DNA of 12,254 nucleotides. It comes from Paraspadella gotoi. Its lineage: Eukaryota > Animalia > Chaetognatha. Position numbers and translations under genes: made by a program. The notes beneath the pieces are model-generated. The model saw only the letters and a list, made by a program, of their open reading frames with translations. It was not told the origin of the DNA and did not search any database. This document shows positions 1-12,252 of this stretch, piece by piece (the stretch's first letter is position 1; each line of letters starts with the position of its first letter). Location: NCBI GenBank assembly GCA_051294375.1, contig CM119265.1, positions 469,133 to 481,386 on the forward strand, written 5' to 3'.

Positions 1-1350
1 GTTAACGCCCTGCTCCTTCCTCGGTCCGCCTATCTCGTGGACGCCGACGGCGTCATCATCGATTTGCCGCAGAAGCTCCATGACGCCCTCGACAGCAAAA
101 AGCCACTGTCGCCGAAGGAGGTGAACGCTGCCTTCAAGGACACCCTGCGCATCGTCAACGACTCCGCAAGGGAAATAGCAAACGTCAAGAGCCTCCTACG
201 ACAGCAGACGGCCCGCATCGATACGGTCGTCGCCTCAGTGAATGACGCGAACGCCGCCGTTACCTTGATCAACGCAAAGTTCGACGCCGCTTTCACTGAC
301 CTGAAAGCGATATTCTTAGGCGGCTCCGCNNNNNNNNNNNNNNNNNNNNNNNNNCGCCCCCGACCATACGCTCCGCCCCGTGGCCGTGCCCACGTCAACC
401 ACGACCGCCTCCACCTTAGTGGAACCGCCCAGAAGGCTCTCCGGCCAAGCAATCAAGCTGGAAAAACGCCGCGCGGATGAGAAACCTGAAGAGTTCCTCA
501 TGGGAGTATACAAAACCCTACGCGATTGCGGCGAAGACCCAAAGATCGATGATCAACTCAAGGCCCTTCTCGCCCGCGATGAGGAAGCCAGTGTGTTCAT
601 CGACCCGATAGACGGCAGTCTCTGGCGCGGCCTAAAAGAAATGTGCGAGTCAACGTCGGTTGGGATCTTAGAAGCCTCGGCTAGTATCTCCGTAGTCGTC
701 GACCCCGTCGTCCACTCCAAATTCGGTCTAGCGTTAGTAAACACGGTTTACCGCCACTTCGACTATGTCGCCCGGAAGAACGCCCGGCGATCGCCCGTCA
801 TGTCGCACGCCTACTCACCACGGCGCTGGAACCTTACGCTCCGGGAATCACGGCAGAATCAATGAAGTTCCGCCGCCTTATCGCCGACGGAAATCGACGC
901 GAACTCGGCTCTATCATCGAATGGAAATTGCGCGGCTACCTGAATTCCCGCGGAATGGATGCCTCGTCCCGCCGATTCATCAACTCGGTAAAAGAAGACG
1001 ACCGCCAAGTACTCACGGACTCCCTCCTGAAGAAGGGCCTGTCGGACAAAGATCCCGGCGACAGCGCCAACGCCCTTTACCAAGGCACAATGGTGCAGGA
1101 AGCAAACAACCAAAGGGAGCTCCTGGAAAAGATGGCAAAATCTATGGCAAAGATGGAAAAGGCGATGGCTGAGTCCCGTTCAGCTGAAGAACGGAAATGG
1201 AAACCAGCGCCCTCTCGTGAATTCCGCCGCGAGGACCGCCGCACTGACCGAAGAAATTTTGGCGAGGACAGCCGCTGGACAAACAGGCGTAAAGAACAAC
1301 CTCGAAATGGTAGAACGGGCAGATTTGAAGCGAAGAGGCGTGATTTTCTT
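1..1350 (+). CDS. gag: Gag-like region (fragmented: frame open from base 1, N gap, ORF 380..865, start of ORF 862..2046)
   Basis: Located upstream of the protease; N-terminal coiled-coil-like segment (AREIANVKSLLRQQTARIDTVVASV), helical capsid-like middle, Arg-rich basic segment (REFRREDRRTDRR...GRTGRFEAKRR). No CCHC knuckle. Assignment is mainly positional. Confidence 0.6.
330..354. other. Assembly gap (25 N)
   Basis: Run of 25 N. Confidence 0.99.
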
Positions 1351-2162
1351 GTTGACGCTGACGACGATGATGACATTATTGCTGTGAAAAATAAAAACTG
1401 TGAAAATTACAAATCGTTTTCAGAAGAAAGGGAACAGACAGAACAAAATGTCAAAAGACAAAACAAAATGGCCGAGCTAGCAAAGGAGATGGCCATTAGA
1501 TTACAGAAACTGACTGAAAAGCTCCCTCCGATAAAAAGGATGCCACCCTTAGACGACATCGCGACAAACGCACTGTTGCTAGGCGGTCACAGTGCCCCTA
1601 GCCGAATACGTAAGTTGTTCACACCTTTAAAAACAGTCGCAAAATGCGCCTTAGTTACGGAAATGGCACAAAAAGCAGCTGAAATATGGCCTTCTGCCAA
1701 GGAAGGGAGGAGAAGAGCAATAGTGAAAAGGATCAGATTCTGTGAGAAGCTCTGTACCCCTCCGCCGGAGATTACAGCAACTGTAGAGAAACCGGAAACC
1801 CCTCGTCAAGACGCCGACGCGCTGGCCCGCCTGAGGCAAAAGCCGTCGATGCCACGTCGTGCGTGGCACCGTCTCCGTCCGTCTCCGCACGCACAATCCG
1901 TGCGATGCCGCCGTCTGCTTTACAACCCTACCTACGAGATAGTCGGCACCAGGGATGGCGAGTCTCTGCACAAGGCCACAGTTGACCGAGCTGAAAGAGA
2001 ATGCCATGAGCCAGAAGTATACCCGGCGCCACCTTCGCCCCAATAACCTCCAAAGACGAGGTTCCGCTTCCGCCGCTTCCGGATGCCCCGGTTACGAGCC
2101 CGGCGGCCCCAGGTCCTCCGCCGCCTCGGGACGACACAAATCGCCCAATTGCTTCCGCAAGA
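1351..2162 (+). CDS. Gag-Pol spacer of unknown function (rest of ORF 862..2046 plus Pro-rich linker in the protease frame)
   Basis: ORF 862..2046 stays open; the protease frame is open from 2010 (after TGA 2007-2009) and reads ITSKDEVPLPPLPDAPVTSPAAPGPPPP into the protease. Confidence 0.5.
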
Positions 2163-2435
2163 AACAATTATATTCCAGCGGTTATCAACGGTGCACCCGC
2201 TAGTTGCCTTTACGACACGGGCGCCTCCATAAACACGATTCCCAGTCGTTACGTAGATGAATGGTCGCTCCGCGACAAAATCACCCAAGGCCCGCCGATT
2301 CGAGTCACCACAGGAAATGGAATCGTATTCGTCCGTGATCGCCTAAAGCTAAAAGTCATGTTTCAAAACTGGACCTTAGACACTACCTTTTTTGTGTCCC
2401 CAGACGAAGAAGACCGAGACGTTGTCATCGGCACA
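2163..2435 (+). CDS. pol: Retropepsin-type aspartic protease domain of Pol
   Basis: The frame of ORF 2358..2765 extended upstream reads NNYIPAVINGAPASCLYDTGASINTI...RVTTGNG...DVVIGT. Catalytic DTG at 2214-2222, plus flap and terminal IG motif. Confidence 0.92.
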
Positions 2436-3079
2436 GCAACCACAGACCCAGGCCCACCTCATGAGCTATGGGTCGTCACCCCGTCGGAAAGTGGTCTCCA
2501 AGTCGCCCACATGGCAGGAAAACCAATTACTCACCTCCTCAAAAGAAACAAGCGGCGCTCCGCGCCGCCAGATGGCTGGCCCGTCAATCCGTCGATGCCA
2601 TTTCTGCCATCCCTCTTTTCGCCGAAGCACAAACCCCAGGTCGAGTTTTGGTTAGAGCGGCGAGAGTATATTGGAAAACACTCGCAGATGCGAAATGGAT
2701 CATCGAATCATCAGGCAAGGACGCCGCCTGCTCAGTCGACGGAGCAAACCTCCGCTCAGGCGTAAACCTCCCTGGAACGCCTGGTCGATGGGGCAGCGCA
2801 AAGATCATCATCACAGAAGAGGCCCAGAAACGACTCCAGCTCCCGCCTCAGACACAGCGAAACCAGTCACTGCCGACCTGTCGGGTGAGAAACCAAAATT
2901 AAGGAAAATTAGAAAAACTGATATTCCGCCAACGAAAATAGTAAAACACTCACCCTCAGACACAGAGCTGAGAGCAGTAGAAGAAGCGCGCGACAGACGT
3001 AGACAAAAACATGACGAGCGCGGGAAAGAGGAATTCCTCAGACCGTTTAAGGAGATAGACCCGTCCCTCGCCGACAAAG

Positions 3080-4115
3080 CCCCCATCGTATGGGAGGCCG
3101 TATGGGATTTCCGCGACGTTTTCGGCGATTCCATAAACGACTGCAAAGAAGGTTTTCTAAATTACAAGGTAGATCTAGGCTTCACCATGGATGACTTGCC
3201 TAAGCCACGTTTTGTAAACCAAGGCCCCGTCAAAAAAGCCGCCTTAAAAAGATACCTGGAAGTTTATGAAAAAGCTGGCGTCGTCTCCAGGACATCAGGT
3301 GAGGCTTATTCAAATGCTTTCCTCATAAAGAAGCCAAACCACATCAGCCAAGGGCAAGACAATATGGATGACGAGACTTTCGCGAAACAGTGGCGCTTGA
3401 TCTGCGATTTATCCGCGGTAAATGAAAACATATCGACCTACGCCACAGAACCACAAACGATCTCGGCCATCTTAGAGGAATACAAGCCTCACGAACTCCA
3501 ATGCTCGGTAGACATCCTTGCCTGCTTTCACCAAGTAAACCTGACTGACAACTGTAAACCCATCACCCCTTCGCAGGAGCAGGACATAACTGGGAGATGA
3601 ATAAATTGCCAATGGGCGGAATAAACAGCATAAACGTCCTCCAAGCCATCCTCGATGAAATATTCGCAGACCTCGGCAGAGATGTAAAATCTTTTCTCAT
3701 TTACGTCGATGACCTCATCCTCACAGCTAAAGATCCGGAAGAGATGGCACTCAGACTCCGCGAATTTTTGTCAATTTGTAGAAGAGAAAACGTCGTCCTA
3801 AAGTGGACGAAAAGTGTACTGTTGAGAAAGGACGACATCAAAATACTGGGGTTTAGTATTTCCAAGGATAAATTAAAACCCCAACGTGAAAAGATGGAAC
3901 AGGCCGAACTCAAGTTAAAAGAGTTGAAATCCCAGAAGGACCTACGAGCTCTCCTTGCCTCTCTCAACTACTACCGGTGCTTCACTCACCGCTTTTCCTA
4001 CCTCGCGCAACCACTCCACGCCCTCACCCTGCTTGATAGAAAAGACTTTAAGTTCACCGACGCCCATCGAGCGAGCCTAAACACGTTAATAACTGAAATT
4101 AAATCACCCCAGGCT
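3080..4115 (+). CDS. pol: Reverse transcriptase (split by 1-nt frameshift near 3567)
   Basis: YSNAFLIKKP, WRLICDLSAVN, SVDILACFHQV, (TAF)AGAGHNWEMNKLPMG, IYVDDLI (YVDD 3702-3713), ILGFSI, LNYYRCF: Gypsy RT palm and thumb motifs. Confidence 0.96.
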
Positions 4116-4149
4116 TAAACTTTTTAAACGATGCAAAAATTAAGAATGG

Positions 4150-4526
4150 AGAATACCGTATATATGCTGAGCCAGCACTAGCGCCATGGGCGGCCTCATC
4201 ACAGCCACAGCTGATGGCGTGGAATACCCTTTGTGCTTCCACTCGAAATCCTTCCCCGACGAATACCGCCTCAAACACATAAACATCCTAGAAACTCTCG
4301 CTTTCAACATGATGGTCAGACGCTTTAAGGGATACATATGTGGAAGAAGAGTATCGCTAATTACAGACTCTCAATACTTTAAACGCATCATGGATCTACA
4401 ACATGATAAACAACAGCTCCTACCACCAACGTCCTTCGCTGGATCACGGAAATCCGGCAAGAATGCCACCCACAGGAGATCATACTAGTGAAAAGCGAGG
4501 ATAACCCCGCAGATTTCCTTACCCGC
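4150..4526 (+). CDS. pol: RNase H domain of Pol (frameshifted)
   Basis: Across 1-nt indels: YRIYA(D)ASTSAMGG, FHSKSF, ILETLAF, LITDSQ, LRWITEI, KSEDNPADFLTR: the D-E-D...D RNase H pattern of Gypsy elements. Confidence 0.9.
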
Positions 4527-4639
4527 TTCACTGATCAAGGACAGATCACGCCGCTCGACACCCCCTTTTGGCCAGCAGGATTTGATTGTACAGGACCTAC
4601 GTTCCCGGCTTCTCAGAGTGCCCAATATCCGGAGCGTCG

Positions 4640-5035
4640 TGGCCGGGTCATCTTGAGCTCCACACCGGCGGCGCTCCAACGATAGCCCTCGTCGCCGCCA
4701 CGCTAGGTGTCGATGAAAAATCTTTTCGAAAGAAATTTTTCGAATTTGTACGAAAAGAATTTCCCCAGCGCCAAGCAAACGCCGAACGTTTGTACGGAAA
4801 ACCGAAAACGAAAAATGCAGACGCCTTCATCCGGACGATTTCAGCAAAAGACTGGAACCTGGGACATCCCGAACTCGAATTGCTGGCGGAGATGTCCGGT
4901 ATCTGCATTAAAATATTAGATGAGGATTTCACAGTGCCATCAGGCTGCAAATTCGTTAAAACTTATGGGGAAGAAACAAACCGAACACTCCAGATTTTCG
5001 CACGCTAACGGGTCAGGTCTCCCTCATTCAGGACT
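4640..5035 (+). CDS. OTU-like (ovarian tumour cysteine protease fold) domain inserted in Pol
   Basis: ORF 4586..5008: ALVAATLG...FRKKFFEFVR...FIRTISAKDWNLGHPELELLAEMSGICIKIL...YGE...LQIF, then after a shift HANGSGLPH (His 5025-5027). Matches the OTU layout; the catalytic Cys is not recoverable in frame. Confidence 0.55.
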
Positions 5036-5145
5036 CCCCTCCCGATGCATACCTCCGCGCACTCGCCGGACAAGAAGAATCCGGCGACGAGACCGACGAC
5101 GCCATCGTCGTTACAATAGCGGAGCTCGAGCGACTGAAAAAGGCC

Positions 5146-5169
5146 CCAAAGAAGCGAGGTCGACCAAAA
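5146..5169 (+). other. AT-hook motif (PKKRGRPK) in Pol linker
   Basis: cca aag aag cga ggt cga cca aaa in a frame open from at least 4981 to 5355 that the ORF track does not list; RGRP core flanked by K residues. Confidence 0.65.
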
Positions 5170-5644
5170 ACAATCAAAGCCAAACAAATTGCGGCCGCGA
5201 ATCTCCCTCGAGACACCGTCCTTATTAAATTCAACCCACTTCCGGATGACGAGGAAAACAATGAAAACAGCGAAGAGGCGGCCCCGCTGCCATCACCGCC
5301 CCGCGCCGGCCCTCCGCCTTGCTACAGGACTCGTCACCGCCCTCTCACCAGACCCTAACGCAGCGAGAACCGATATCATCCCAGCCGCCCGCCGCTGGCC
5401 CGCCACGAGGCATCACCGACGACCCCGTCGACCCTCGCCGCACCGCGGGGCCGCCGGCGTCGCCGACCCCGCCATCGGCGAAAAATGACGGCTCGCCTAC
5501 GCCTCGCCCGTCCCAAGTGCCGGATCGGCCAGGAACTCCCCCGCGCAGGATGAAGAGCTTGCTTACGACTCCGCCATCGACGCCTCTCTTGACGTTGACG
5601 CCCGCGATCTCGAAGCCGAGCTCCACGACCCGCTCGATCGCGAC

Positions 5645-6958
5645 GTGCGTCTCCTCCCCCTCCGCTCCAACGTGAAATCCTGGCAACAAAATGAGGAAAC
5701 CATCAAATCCGTTGCAACTATTCTCGCGCACCATGGCACCGACGCCGTCAAGGCCCACTTCCGATCCATCCAAGCCAAGGCGCTAACGAAAATGCAAGCC
5801 TTCCTCGCCGCCATCGCAGATGACTTATCTGTCTCAAACGACGGAATCCTCTGCGTAATCGGTTTCCGCGATGAAACAAGAACTTCGAGATTCATTGTCC
5901 CACAAGACAAATTAAGTGACATAATTCGCCGGATCCATGACTACGTTGGCCACCCAGGGCGCGATCGGACCGCCTACATTGTCGCACAGTACGTGGCGGC
6001 GCCCGGCCTCGTCGCCATGTGCTCAAAAGTCGTCCTAAGCTGCGAACCATGCCGCAAAGCCACCGACGAAATGAGGTTCAACGAAACGGAACCAGGCCCA
6101 ACGCATGCGCTAATCCCTTGGGAGTCCTTGTGTATCGACGTCATGCACCTGCCTCCCAGTGGCGGCTTCCAACACGTCCTCGTTGCATCCGATAAAGCTT
6201 CCGCCTACACGTGGGCGTTGCCGATCCGCCGCGCAGACGCCGCCCATATCATCGGAGCACTCGACAAGGCATCTTCTCCCTTCACGGCTCCTTTCTGGAA
6301 ATAAATTTTGACGGGCAACTTCGCTAAACGGCGCCGAGATGCGCAGCATACTGGATCTACTCAACATGAGCGGGAAGCGTGTCCTCGTCTCGAGAAAGAA
6401 CAGCAACCGCGCAGAGAGAGACATTGGGCGCATCCGACAAGCCCTCAGAAAGGCGCTAAATGACGACCCAAACGGTTGGCTCCCCTCGCTGCCTCACCTC
6501 CTCTTAGCGCTAAACGCCACGCCCATTTCCGGTTGGAAAACTGACATGTCACCTCACGAGCTCCAATTCGCCCACCGACCAAGGATCATCGAACCTCCAG
6601 ACGAAACTCTGTACTCGTCGCTCACCGAGTTCGCCAAACAACGCTCAGATAGACAGGACCACGCCCACGAACGCGTCGCAGCGCAGCGAATCGGCCGCCA
6701 CCGATACACGCACAGGAATAATCGCCTGCGACACCCGAAGCGACTCTCAGTGGGAGACCTCGTGTATGTCCGACGCGACCTCGTCCGCACGGGCGCCGCC
6801 CCCAGCGCGAGCAAGGTAAAATCGGTTTACACCGGTCCACATAAAATCGTCCAGATCGACGGAAACCACTTTAAAGTGGACGTTGGAGGCGCCATTTCGT
6901 TTATCACCGTCGCCGCCTGAAAGCAGTCGATCGCGATTCACAAACTTTCTCTTACTAA
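5645..6958 (+). CDS. pol: Integrase (HHCC zinc finger, DDE core, GPY/F-like C-terminus), frameshifted
   Basis: HDYVGH (5936-5953)...CEPC (6041); CIDVM (D 6137); INFDG (D 6310, alternate frame); NRAER (E 6414); YTGPHKI; after a final shift YHRRRLKAV...stop TAA 6956-6958. No chromodomain seen. Confidence 0.95.
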
Positions 6959-7022
6959 AAGCGTCACCGGCAAATCCTCAAACAGCGAAAGGAAAGCAGA
7001 TAAGAAATGTACAGCAAATCTA

Positions 7023-7069
7023 TCTCTCTCTCTCTCTCTCTCCCTCTCTCCCTCTCTCTCCCTCTCCCC
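7023..7069 (+). repeat. (CT)n-like polypyrimidine tract
   Basis: tctctctctctctctctctccctctctccctctctctccctctcccc. Confidence 0.95.
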
Positions 7070-7070
7070 A

Positions 7071-7077
7071 CTTTCAG
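7071..7077 (+). promoter_or_regulatory. Candidate 3' splice acceptor for an env mRNA
   Basis: CTTTCAG directly after a ~47-nt pyrimidine tract; the next downstream ATG is the env start at 7334. Confidence 0.4.
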
Positions 7078-7216
7078 CCGAACCCTCATCTCTCCTCTTA
7101 ACGCTCAACTCTGACCCACTTTTCCACGAGATACTCTCGCGGCCGGGAAGGGGGTAAGATCCATCAAGCTCTCGCCCCGGCTTATCACTTGCCGGCTGTT
7201 ATCTCAACAACTTTTC

Positions 7217-7239
7217 AAAAAAAAAAAAAAAAAAAAAAA
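7217..7239 (+). repeat. Poly(A) run starting an A-rich leader upstream of env
   Basis: Homopolymer of ~23 A followed by A-rich sequence up to 7333. Confidence 0.9.
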
Positions 7240-7333
7240 GAAACAAAGAGGAAAGATAAATAAGCAAATACAAAAGTTATCGTAAAAACATTTCCAAACA
7301 AAGAAAAGAAAGAAAAGGATTTTCAAAGGAAAA

Positions 7334-8750
7334 ATGTCGATTACTAAAATCCTCGCCATCGCTCTAATCATCGCGAGTATCCACCTACTCGAAACCAACG
7401 CCACCTTACCTTTCGATCGAAAAGTTATCCTGGCAAAAATGAGCTACAGAGACAAGTAGTAGTTTACGACTGCAATCAAACATCTGATCACGCCGCCGTA
7501 GCGATAGACGAAGGAAAATGCGAAGAAGCGGGAAAAGTCGAAGAAAGCTTCAGAGAAATAAAAATTATCTATGTGCCGAAAAATTCAGAAACGACGTCAA
7601 AGGCTGCGATCTCACCATCGTCGCCACGGGGAAATACTGTGGCAGATGGTCAATAACCTATCCAAACATCGACGTCATCGATCATTTTTCCATCCGCGAA
7701 GCCAATGTCTAGATCTGCACGCTGGACGAACCATCTCGCTCGACTCCATCCCGATACGCACGTCTGATGACACGGGAGTCTTCCGCCCCATTCGAATGCG
7801 CGGCGCCATGGGAACAATATCGTCACCCATAGGATCGGCACAAACGACGCGGACGGCGCCTGTACAGGGGAAAAATTCAAATTTCATGATCACGCGTATG
7901 AGAGTGAAAACGCAAAACTAATCTCGAACTTAACGCTATATTCGCTCCAAGGTGAAGATCAGCGGAGATGAAACCTCAAAGAACGGCCGCTGCAACCTTC
8001 GCCCAGCGCCAATGTGTTTACCCGGGCGGCATTCTTTGCCTGGGACGACAGCGGCTGCAGGGCGAAGATTGCTTACGAGGGAGGAATATTTCAAAGTCAT
8101 GACGGTTTCATCCGGACGCCAACGCTAGCAGACAGGCGTCGCGCGCTAGGCAAATGCGCGCCGGCCGAAGGAACCCCTTGCAACGATAACAACATCGCCT
8201 CTTTCGCTGGCAAGCCAGGCTGCTGGTCCCGCTGCGCCATTTTCCTCCACCGAAACAACAACGCAGGCGATCACGCGGAAACCATCGAACGCTGTCGCAT
8301 CGCCTGCGCCCCGCTTCCAAGCGGCGCCTTCACCCTCCGCATCGCAGGCAAAGAAGAAACACTTCGTGGCTGCAGGTCCCGCGCGGCGGCCACCTCGTCG
8401 CCGCATTTCTTTGTGACGTCACAAAGTGCCTCAACGTCGCTCGACGTCGATCCTTCAACACTCAGTTCGCTAGTCGAAATATCATCGAGGCTCGCTGAAC
8501 GCAACCAAGACCGCCTCGACCGACTCACGGACGCCCTGCGCCGCGATTGTGCGTTGCAAAAAACGCAAGCGGCGAGATTGCCGCCGAACGCGCCACCTCT
8601 CGCCCGCCTCCACTACCTTCATTGGCAAAGGCCAATGGCGATCCTCCAGGGGAACTCCTCCTGACGGCGACGTGCGAGCGCACGCTGGCGCTGCGCCGCC
8701 AAACGGACGGCTGTTTACCACGATCTCCCCATTAGCTACAAGGGGTCACG
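7334..8750 (+). CDS. env: Env-like class III fusion glycoprotein (chuvirus G / herpes gB-like), frameshifted, C-terminus missing
   Basis: ATG 7334 gives signal peptide MSITKILAIALIIASIHLLETNA. Stitched frames give VYDCNQT (7465-7473), GKC, GCDLTIVATGKYCGRWS, QCLDLHAG, GTNDADGACTG, GRCNL..QC..FAWDDSGCRAKIAYEG, FTLR...GC...TSSPHFFV, long helix ending RRDCALQK, GELLLTATCER...DGC(Y)HDLPI. N-glycosylation sequons NQT and NLT. No TM segment before the break. Confidence 0.8.
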
Positions 8751-8893
8751 CCGCGTTCCGCATGCCGTGTTCCATCATGTGGTAAATGTCGTCGGGTTTT
8801 AGCTTGGCATGAGATAAAAGGTTAGGGTTAGGGCAAAAAAAATGGCCTGCTGTAAATCATCGCAGAGGAATCAAGACTCCAGAATCGAAATCG

Positions 8894-8918: not shown

Positions 8919-8939
8919 TAATGTCGCACAATGACTCAA

Positions 8940-9075
8940 AACGTTGTGCGCCACGCTCAACCCACGAGATCCGCACTCCGCCTTAGGTTGGAAAATAACC
9001 GCCCAGAAACGGTCTCTCCGGCCAGCAATTAAGCTGGGTAAAAACGCCGCGCGGATGAGAAACCTTGGAAAGACG
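8940..9075 (+). repeat. Insertion-riddled second copy of gag segment ~380-500
   Basis: Shares accgcccagaa, ctctccggcca, aagctgg, aaaaacgccgcgcggatgagaaacct with 424-487, with extra inserted bases. Confidence 0.85.
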
Positions 9076-9165
9076 TTCGCCTCAATTTAAGGTAGTAAGT
9101 AAATATTTCTAAAATTTAACTTTAATTAAACATTCTCAACGAAAGCTGCATTGCCCTTTGAGCAT

Positions 9166-9365
9166 GCACGCCGCGCGTAACTCTGTGTGTCATCTTGGTG
9201 TAGGGTTAAATATACTTTCAGAGTGGTTAAGGTATTTTTAGAATCTCCTTGGATCACTAGAGATAAAAAGTGGTGTAGGAGCCTTAGCGCGCAAAAAAAT
9301 CAATGGCCTGCCTTCACAAATCACTTCGCAGAGAATAGCAAGACTTCCAAGGCAATCGAAACTCG
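9166..9365 (+). repeat. Noisy duplicate of 8746-8893
   Basis: Collinear shared words cacgccgcg, gagataaaa, gcaaaaaaa, aatggcctgc, aaatca, tcgcagag, caagact, aatcgaaa. Confidence 0.75.
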
Positions 9366-9731
9366 GGATCGCCGACGTTCTCGCGCGCAGCGCAAAATCT
9401 CCGCCCGGAGGGAAGTAGAATGGAACAATTCCTCATTTGGTCTGATAAAGACCAATTAAATACAGATGTCACAATGGGCAGATGGCGACTTCTTTCCGGC
9501 TGATAAACTTACCCTTACTGCCGGATTCCGATTTCGCAGGGGGTATTAAATAAGGAACCCAATCTTGTAATTGATTTAACATTTCCTGGCCTCAAGACAA
9601 TTGACACCGTTTGTATATATTGTTCTGTAATTCTGAAGAAACTAAAAATCTCATCTTTTGGGATTTCCCGTAGAAATTCCCTGTCTATTTTACTTAATTT
9701 GTCCGGACAGGTCGGGCACAGGCTGGGATTC

Positions 9732-10614: not shown

Positions 10615-12252
10615 TTACAAANNNNNNNNNNATCTAGGCTTAGGCCTGACAGCGGGGATTTTGTTTTCTGTTTTTGTGGCGTTGTTGTTTTTTGTTTCTG
10701 TGTCATTAGAGTTAATGTTATTGTTTTCCCCCGCTTGGCGTTTTATCAACTCTTTCAGAACAATGGCGTAGGTCGGGCGATAAGGCTTATTCGAAAAGTT
10801 CTCCGGTGTTGGCCTCGAAAACCTACACGTTGGCTCAATTCTCAGGTTTTCGTTATCGCTCGGTTGAGCTTGTTCTTTAAGCGAATGAGTCGAATTGCTT
10901 GTCGATCGATTTGGCGGTGTTGCTGGAGGCCTAGGTTCCTGAAATGATGGGAGTGGGTCGGGGGGGGGTTGGGGTAGAGGGGAGGAGGGTGAAGGAAGCG
11001 GAGGAGGAATCGACGGAGGAGGAGAGGCCGCTCTCAGGTGCTGCCTATGAGTAGTCGATAGATCTGAAACTTGATTTTTCGATCGAGTAGTTCTTGAAGT
11101 TTGAGGCGGGTTTCTTGTTCTCGGTCCTGGTCGGCGGCCTGGTGGTCTCTCTTCGCGCGGTTCTGGGTCATCAATTTGCCTGTCGTCCTCGCTGACCCAG
11201 GCTGGCTTGACCCTGGCGATATTGACGGTTTCGTGGCCTTTGCTGGGGATGTCGATCGTCATGTTGATGTTGTTGCGGTGTACAACCCGGTAGGGACCTT
11301 CATAGGGGGGAACAAGAGGAGGATTAACGCCGGCCCTTTTAACGAATACATACTTGGCTGTATTTAAGTTTGCAGGTATGTGAATCGCCGGTTGTCGATG
11401 GGCCGATGTCTGAGTAGGCTGGAGTCTTGCTACTTCCACCCGGAGTCTTGAAAGTTGTGCTCTTCTTTGTCGATTGAGGTTTTCGTCGTTGACTTGGGCG
11501 TCACCTAGCATTGAGCCTGGGACGCCAATTCCTTCGCCGAAGACCAGATCAGCTGATGACGCTCCAATGTCTTCCTTCACTGTTGTTCTTATTGCGAGTA
11601 GTGTGAGAGGCAATTTCCAGAACCAATTTTGTTTTTCATCGTTTGCTAGCGCCATTAGGGATTCCTTGAGCCTTCGATGAAATCTCTCTACCATCCCATT
11701 GGATTGTGGATGGTAAGCTGTTGTTGTCTGGTTCTTTATGCCCCAGGTTTTGGTCAGCTGTTGCCATAGATTTGAGGTAAATTGACTACCTCTGTCCGTT
11801 GTTATCACAGATGGAGTCCCGAAGATACTAATCCAATTTAGGCTTAGTGCATCTAGGATGGTCGGGGTTAGAGTATCTTGCAGAGGTATTGCGGCCGGCC
11901 AACGCGAGAATCTGTCAACTATTGTCAACAGATGTGAGAATCCGTTGGATTTGGGCATCTTGACGAGGTCGATGTTGAGATGCTGGAATCTCCGCGCTGG
12001 AACCTTGAAGTCGCCTATCTCTGGGACGGTATGCTTAGAGACCTTGGCGCGCTGGCAGTCTAGACAATCTCTTGCCCAGCGGGAGACGTCTTGGCGCATC
12101 CCGGTCCACACAAACTTGGCGGCGACGGCTTTCCGTGTGGCCTCGACTCCCGGATGGCCGAGGCCATGGATAACGTCGAAGATTTTGCGCCGCCATGAAT
12201 TTGGAACGAATGGGCGTGCCGGTCCATTGGATATGTCCGCGAGCAGTTCCTG
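10615..12252 (-). CDS. pol: Pol C-terminus: Gypsy integrase (CsRN1-like) with Pro-rich tail; ORF continues beyond the window
   Basis: Frame open to the window edge: DISNGPARPFVP..RRKIFDVIHGLGHPG...KFVW...CLDCQRAK, HLNIDLV, DRFSRWPAAIP, TTDRGSQF, YHPQSNGMVER, YEGPYRV. The stop position lies just past a 10-N gap, so it is uncertain. Confidence 0.96.
   Translation of the reverse strand, partial: QELLADISNGPARPFVPNSWRRKIFDVIHGLGHPGVEATRKAVAAKFVWTGMRQDVSRWARDCLDCQRAKVSKHTVPEIGDFKVPARRFQHLNIDLVKMPKSNGFSHLLTIVDRFSRWPAAIPLQDTLTPTILDALSLNWISIFGTPSVITTDRGSQFTSNLWQQLTKTWGIKNQTTTAYHPQSNGMVERFHRRLKESLMALANDEKQNWFWKLPLTLLAIRTTVKEDIGASSADLVFGEGIGVPGSMLGDAQVNDENLNRQRRAQLSRLRVEVARLQPTQTSAHRQPAIHIPANLNTAKYVFVKRAGVNPPLVPPYEGPYRVVHRNNINMTIDIPSKGHETVNIARVKPAWVSEDDRQIDDPEPREERPPGRRPGPRTRNPPQTSRTTRSKNQVSDLSTTHRQHLRAASPPPSIPPPLPSPSSPLPQPPPDPLPSFQEPRPPATPPNRSTSNSTHSLKEQAQPSDNENLRIEPTCRFSRPTPENFSNKPYRPTYAIVLKELIKRQAGENNNINSNDTETKNNNATKTENKIPAVRPKPRXXXXL
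10622..10631. other. Assembly gap (10 N)
   Basis: Run of 10 N. Confidence 0.99.

What the first reader, a model, noticed from the sequence alone, without database searches (positions are those of the whole stretch)
1..8750. Candidate unusual endogenous retrovirus-like lineage: Gypsy pol with OTU-like and AT-hook modules plus a class III env
Seen: one element combines a divergent Gypsy pol (LPMGGINS where MPFGLxNA is usual; RKNSNRAER where HPQSNGxAER is usual), extra domains inside Pol and a separate secreted Cys-rich ORF3. Known: Drosophila errantiviruses use baculovirus F-like env. Inference: this may be an enveloped, potentially infectious retroelement that also carries a ubiquitin-related accessory domain. 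I do not recognise this combination from described families, but cannot exclude a prior report.
Basis: partly seen in the sequence, partly recalled or inferred. Interest (0 to 1): 0.85.

Follow-up and report, generated by a model that had tools for sequence, protein, structure and literature searches.

The report
Enveloped gypsy element with dead deubiquitinase
A retrovirus-like jumping gene, likely of an animal, carries a likely herpes/chuvirus-type membrane-fusion gene, a layout already published, plus an extra domain inside its enzyme protein that is predicted to have a ubiquitin-cutting fold without the cutting residues, which the papers searched do not describe for such elements.

Summary
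The element is real: gag, protease, RT, RNase H, an extra domain, one AT-hook, integrase, then a signal-peptide ORF3. Contigs of four public runs (three studies) tile it and differ from the window by single-letter gaps at its frame breaks. The breaks are therefore likely errors of this assembly.

ORF3 keeps the cysteine landmarks of chuvirus-G/herpes-gB-type Env. Gypsy plus this Env is published (PMC13524379) and this scan met it before on other DNA. It is not new.

Not shown: LTRs, an Env membrane anchor (ORF3 is cut at 8785), one contig bridging pol and env, expression, infectivity. Verdict: new variant of a known kind.

The parts
1..2040 (+). gag-like region; 5' end not seen, N gap at 330-354; coiled-coil-like start, charged tail, no CCHC knuckle seen
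   Evidence: ORFs; no Pfam or PDB hit; assigned as gag by position only
2172..2435 (+). retropepsin-type aspartic protease, DTG at 2214
   Evidence: Pfam Asp_protease_2 E 8e-7; motif
3100..4120 (+). reverse transcriptase and connection; LPMGGINS, YVDD at 3702; insert before the WRL motif shared with P0001
   Evidence: RVT_1 E 4e-10; P0001 69% and 56% identical over two pieces
4120..4530 (+). single Ty3/gypsy-type RNase H
   Evidence: RT_RNaseH E 1.3e-7; its end matches the start of P0002 at 46%
4640..5030 (+). predicted OTU-fold domain lacking the usual catalytic Cys and His (pseudo-OTU)
   Evidence: 10 relatives; fold searches; motif columns
5149..5169 (+). single AT-hook motif KKRGRPK
   Evidence: GRP absent from 10 of 10 domain relatives, only 4 of which reach into the linker
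5270..5540 (+). proline-rich low-complexity linker (27% Pro over 5325-5534)
5680..6955 (+). pre-integrase helical/mini domain and integrase: HHCC 5897-6061, D 6137, D 6310, E 6414, GPH 6834
   Evidence: Integrase_H2C2 E 2.6e-10, rve E 9e-4; PFV integrase E 1.4e-5; P0003 end matches the pre-integrase part, E 4e-4; spacing
6957..7333 (+). pol-env spacer with a CT microsatellite (7012-7072) and an A-rich tract (7206-7253)
   Evidence: sequence; repeat limits
7334..8785 (+). ORF3, likely class III (chuvirus-G / HSV gB-type) envelope; signal peptide; broken in the window and cut at its 3' end
   Evidence: hydropathy; four landmarks in order and spacing against published rows; contigs run on beyond 8785

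Best explanation
This is an error-ridden, end-truncated copy of a divergent Ty3/gypsy-type retroelement that likely encodes a class III (chuvirus-G/herpes-gB-like) fusion protein and carries, between RNase H and integrase, a domain predicted to be an OTU fold without its catalytic residues, which would act as a binding module rather than a protease. SHOWN: domain order gag-PR-RT-RH-X-IN-ORF3; catalytic motifs of PR, RT and IN; X shared by relatives in the same place; no Cys or His at the aligned catalytic positions. INFERRED from the frame bookkeeping: family copies have one continuous gag-pol frame of about 2,300 codons. INFERRED from known errantivirus biology: the polyprotein is cut by its own protease, RNA is reverse-transcribed in particles and integrated by the DDE integrase; Env is made separately, enters the secretory path by its signal peptide and would fuse particles with neighbouring cells, as from soma to germ line. 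INFERRED and least certain: X stays on RT-RH or integrase and binds ubiquitin or a ubiquitin-like mark, with the AT-hook helping to hold the integration complex on chromatin, much as chromodomains do in chromoviruses. My odds: element identity 0.85, class III env 0.85, OTU fold 0.7, inactive if OTU 0.85, ubiquitin-family binding as its job 0.35.
Confidence: 0.6

Rival explanations
1. Domain X is not OTU-derived. It is a lineage-specific helical/beta spacer in the RNase H-integrase bridge, one more of the 'outlier' bridge structures, with a structural role only.
For: All OTU scores are sub-threshold; models are low-confidence. The eLife study lists five bridges as 'Other' without naming them.
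Against: Two different sequences, two aligners and Pfam all lean to OTU; both the helical half and the strand half align. The W-x-L-G-H-x-E-L..L-A..I segment is kept in 8 of 8 sequences that cover it, with small variations.
Confidence: 0.22
2. Domain X is an active cysteine protease or deubiquitinase that uses a relocated pair: the His of LGH(P/Q)E and the Cys of (G/R)CK. It would strip ubiquitin from element proteins or damp host defence, like viral OTUs.
For: That His is kept in 8 of 8 and that Cys in 7 of 8 sequences covering them. The best structural rows are nairovirus OTU proteases. OTU domains ride on Ginger1 transposases and Helitrons (PMC2836005).
Against: The usual Cys loop holds Pro in 6 of 7 and the His loop Gln/Ser in 5 of 5. 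The conserved Cys lies in a low-confidence part of both models. No coordinates were available to measure the Cys-His distance.
Confidence: 0.1
3. The window is a patchwork assembly and ORF3 belongs to another element (for example a BEL/Pao Anakin-like one), joined to this pol at the simple repeats.
For: The window is visibly patched: three N gaps, insertion-rich duplicates at 8919-9365, a join at 8785. No listed contig bridges 7012-7253.
Against: All 30 bins of 4450-7900 are covered in both runs laid; no joint is listed; contigs run into the repeats from both sides (31 letters from pol, 46-48 from env); word depth of pol and env contigs is alike in 4 of 4 runs (X1 140-217 vs 217; X2 237-332 vs 282; X5 27-34 vs 36-40; X6 124-232 vs 179), though depth is a weak measure.
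Confidence: 0.08

Closest known systems
HSV/gB-type 'errantiviruses' (env-carrying Ty3/gypsy), Chary & Hayashi, eLife 2026, PMC13524379; Env most like their Insecta_C1 and Platyhelminthes_C1a rows
   Same: gag-pol-env order; class III-type Env with signal peptide and the same cysteine landmarks; single RNase H followed by a small pre-integrase domain, as in 'ancient errantiviruses'
   Different: Their bridge classes are RNase H/tether, mini, pseudo-RNase H or 'Other'; the main text has 0 occurrences of OTU, AT-hook or deubiquit-. Three short window Env motifs are not in the seven supplements (gapped rows could hide them). One ctenophore element with gB Env has an unnamed 'Other' bridge (Pbac_errantivirus_5); its Env row does not show this element's landmarks and its Pol could not be seen.
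Anakin (BEL/Pao elements with chuvirus glycoprotein; PMC7642597, listing only; cited in PMC13524379 and PMC12440569)
   Same: same kind of captured glycoprotein
   Different: Pol here has gypsy-type RT_RNaseH, Integrase_H2C2 and a GPY/F-like motif, not BEL/Pao features
Ginger1 DNA transposons and Helitrons/Helentrons with OTU domains (PMC2836005, PMC6431247; passages)
   Same: OTU domain fused to the transposition enzyme of a mobile element; Ginger1 has a gypsy-like integrase
   Different: They are DNA transposons without RT; in Ginger1 the OTU is C-terminal to the integrase; here the domain is inside a retroelement Pol, before integrase, and lacks the usual catalytic residues
Burro giant gypsy elements of planarians (PMC6431247, passages)
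   Same: gypsy element with env and a ubiquitin-related accessory domain in the polyprotein
   Different: Burro has a ubiquitin/SUMO-like fold, BCL-2 and MATH domains and env between gag and pol; no OTU is named
Odin/Lokiretrovirus (PMC9040795) and Troyka (PMC12440569); passages
   Same: divergent LTR retroelements with PR-RT-RH-IN order
   Different: Odin has a tether plus a second RNase H and no env; Troyka has no env and no GPF/Y motif; this element has one RNase H, GPH and ORF3

Membership tests
Ty3/gypsy (Metaviridae) | Pol order PR-RT-RH-IN | tested here: met
Ty3/gypsy (Metaviridae) | single RT_RNaseH-type RNase H directly after RT; H2C2 zinc finger; DD(35)E-like core | tested here: met
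   (P0001), 87: D-x57-D-x34-E
Ty3/gypsy (Metaviridae) | GPY/F motif after the integrase core | tested here: inconclusive
   variant GPH at 6834; SH3_Tf2-1 E 0.19
Ty3/gypsy (Metaviridae) | RT falls within Ty3/gypsy in a phylogeny | not testable with these tools
   no reference set on hand; PDB ranks Ty3 62.4 bits, foamy 57.5, caulimovirus-type 50.9 for P0001
Ty3/gypsy (Metaviridae) | LTRs, PBS, PPT, target-site duplication | tested here: inconclusive
   no long direct repeat; both ends abut other repeats; no genome held
HSV/gB-type errantivirus | separate ORF after pol with signal peptide | tested here: met
   ATG 7334, hydrophobic start
HSV/gB-type errantivirus | domain I-II cysteine landmarks of gB-type Env | tested here: met
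   4 of 4 landmarks within 8 codons of expected spacing; 0 of 3000 shuffles above 1; motifs chosen post hoc
HSV/gB-type errantivirus | profile or structure match to a class III fusogen | tested here: inconclusive
   no hit from broken frames; not folded
HSV/gB-type errantivirus | C-terminal transmembrane anchor | not testable with these tools
   ORF3 cut at 8785; contigs continue 253 letters that were not shown
HSV/gB-type errantivirus | env physically linked to pol | tested here: inconclusive
   continuous cover, like depth, no joint, but no single bridging contig listed
OTU deubiquitinase | OTU fold | tested here: inconclusive
OTU deubiquitinase | catalytic Cys at the start of the first helix | tested here: not met
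   Pro in 6 of 7; a Cys two places earlier only in P0002; register recalled
OTU deubiquitinase | catalytic His before the last strand | tested here: not met
   Gln or Ser in 5 of 5; register recalled
AT-hook | R-G-R-P core with basic flanks | tested here: met
   KKRGRPK at 5149; 0.1% in shuffles
AT-hook | kept in relatives | tested here: not met
   GRP in 0 of 10 relatives, only 4 of which reach the linker
Odin / Lokiretrovirus | tether plus second RNase H | tested here: not met
   one RNase H hit only; the next domain has no RNase H hit and is predicted largely helical

The most novel reading that the evidence does not exclude
An undescribed, deeply divergent errantivirus-like lineage captured an OTU deubiquitinase, lost its catalytic residues and kept it as a ubiquitin-family reader inside Pol, giving retroelements a targeting or shielding module distinct from chromodomains: a pseudo-deubiquitinase in an LTR retroelement.
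Probability: 0.3. Interest if true: 0.72.

Novelty: new variant of a known kind. Interest (0 to 1): 0.46.

Why it matters
Gypsy elements with gB-type Env are now ordinary. The bridge domain is the point. OTU domains are known on DNA transposons and RNA viruses, but the searches here found none reported inside an LTR-retroelement Pol. If the fold holds, it is a pseudo-enzyme kept across sub-lineages 30-50% alike, which points to a binding role. That would offer a testable link between retroelement integration or defence evasion and host ubiquitin marks. The very divergent RT also marks a family poorly covered by current databases: 1 RT relative found among 2118 candidates.

Tried and rejected
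No genome is held, so copy number, LTRs and other copies could not be studied. Homolog searches: integrase piece, 0 of 2789 candidates; env frame read with X, 0 of 7991. Related loci: none in viral contigs or metagenome contigs. Pfam on env and bridge frames: nothing. PDB sequence search: nothing useful for the bridge, gag or env. BFVD fold search: nothing significant. Wide VIA search of the P0003 model: dominated by a long helix, no OTU listed. ESM Atlas gave no answer. No tRNA; only two chance-level Rfam rows. No RNA holder was listed; run X5 is only guessed to be RNA, so expression is open. P0010 dropped as a spurious repeat-protein hit. Alignment A2 dropped because the pre-integrase piece misaligned. 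Troyka and Odin considered and rejected on domain features. 'Decayed copy' rejected as the main cause of the breaks, since contigs of three studies differ from the window at those places with almost no substitutions; copy-specific decay cannot be fully excluded. Literature searches for an OTU or AT-hook in LTR-retroelement Pol returned only Ginger, Helitron/Helentron, adintovirus, Mucor RNAi and review papers. Repbase, GyDB, Dfam, subscription journals, and the figures and GitHub files of PMC13524379 could not be searched, and a prior annotation may lie there.

Full report
1. What is in the window. Bases 1-8785 on the + strand hold a gag-like region, protease, RT, RNase H, an extra domain, an AT-hook, a proline-rich linker, integrase, a 380-base spacer and a third ORF. 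A metagenome protein 56-69% identical to the RT pieces has LPMGGVNS (P0001), so this is a family feature. The family is far from solved RTs: P0001 scores 62.4 bits on Ty3 and 57.5 on foamy virus. The gypsy label therefore rests on domain order and Pfam types, not on a tree.

2. Sequence quality. The window has three N gaps and insertion-rich duplicates at 8919-9365 that look like raw long-read sequence. Nine public runs of one coded organism, from three studies, hold 68-84% of sampled words (11 rows listed, 2 with next to none). I laid four of the nine. Their contigs tile the element with few substitutions. Long contigs show 8, 5 and 1 single-letter gaps over 804-4744, 4745-6536 and 6512-7011. 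That equals the 14 frame switches in the window, all stepping the same way; 10 of the 14 places were listed singly, 4 only as counts. I infer that the breaks are mostly assembly errors and that family copies have one long gag-pol frame. Minority variants and more distant contigs suggest several copies and sub-families, but depth gives no copy number. The best holder may be the source sample.

3. ORF3. It starts at 7334 with a signal-peptide-like stretch. Broken frames give no Pfam, PDB or homolog hit. Published gB-type Env rows (PMC13524379 supplement 2) share a pattern with it. Four short landmarks occur once each, in order, within 8 codons of the spacing of one Insecta_C1 row that I counted by hand; 0 of 3000 shuffles and 0 of 70 control stretches exceeded one landmark. 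The motifs were picked after seeing the match, so the test overstates significance, but the class III reading is likely. ORF3 is cut at 8785, where contigs continue 253 letters unlike the window. 'Secreted' is thus unproven; a membrane anchor is expected from the family.

4. Linkage of pol and env. Over 4450-7900 both runs laid cover all 30 bins, no joint is listed, and contigs enter the simple repeats from both sides. Pol and env contigs have like depth in four runs. No listed contig bridges 7012-7253, where the tool skips repeats. Linkage is likely, not proven.

6. Mechanism. Shown: the parts and their order. Inferred from known errantiviruses: polyprotein processing, reverse transcription in particles, DDE integration, and Env-driven entry into neighbouring cells. 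Inferred and untested: the pseudo-OTU binds a ubiquitin-family mark and, with the AT-hook, helps place or shield the integration complex.

7. Comparison with print. PMC13524379 (seen: abstract, sections 5 part 1, 6, 7, 8, 14, 18, 22, passages; supplement 4 part 1 of 3, supplement 2 part 2 of 114, term searches in the supplements; figures not seen) describes gB-type Env across animals and 114 gypsy elements with chuvirus-like glycoprotein. It does not mention OTU or AT-hook and leaves five bridges as 'Other'. PMC2836005 and PMC6431247 (passages) put OTU on Ginger1 and Helitrons. PMC12440569 (abstract, passages) and PMC9040795 (passages) were read to exclude Troyka and Odin. PMC10886601 (passages) gave nothing usable. 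PMC7642597, PMC8502044, PMC4067079, PMC11943222 and PMC5053271 were seen as listings only. Seven searches found no LTR element with an OTU or AT-hook in Pol; Repbase, GyDB and Dfam were out of reach. Earlier notes of this scan describe gypsy with gB-type Env in other genomes; none of the notes shown names an OTU in Pol.

8. Verdict. Observation partly confirmed; interpretation partly supported. The env pairing is known. The likely pseudo-OTU in the RNase H-integrase bridge makes this a new variant of a known kind. Interest 0.46.

Noticed in passing
window 10615-12252, - strand: A second, unrelated and more typical gypsy integrase frame, open over 545 codons (rve E 3e-17, H2C2 E 2e-16, HPQSNGMVER, GPY), facing the first element tail to tail.
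   Followed up: no
window 8919-9365: Insertion-rich duplicates of 386-508 and of about 8750-8893, like uncorrected long-read sequence; contigs give no cover at 9107-9400.
   Followed up: partly
window 1-38: End of a very abundant repeat: bin depth 18,000-26,000 in three runs, with many contigs leaving at 36-38 into different sequences. It could be an LTR end or another repeat; other notes on this genome describe abundant miniature LTR elements.
   Followed up: partly
window 8786-8893: A moderately abundant repeat joined to the cut end of ORF3; real insertion or assembly join not resolved.
   Followed up: no
window 2440-3100: Long (about 200 codons) unannotated stretch between protease and RT, partly basic and low-complexity; no Pfam hit.
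   Followed up: no
window 2354-4483: Contigs at 85-95% likeness match in patches across PR-RT-RH, pointing to at least one more diverged sub-family in the same organism.
   Followed up: no
P0003 residues 227-275: The relative's linker holds a predicted beta-hairpin and helix where the window has an AT-hook and proline-rich linker, so the linker cargo differs between sub-lineages.
   Followed up: no
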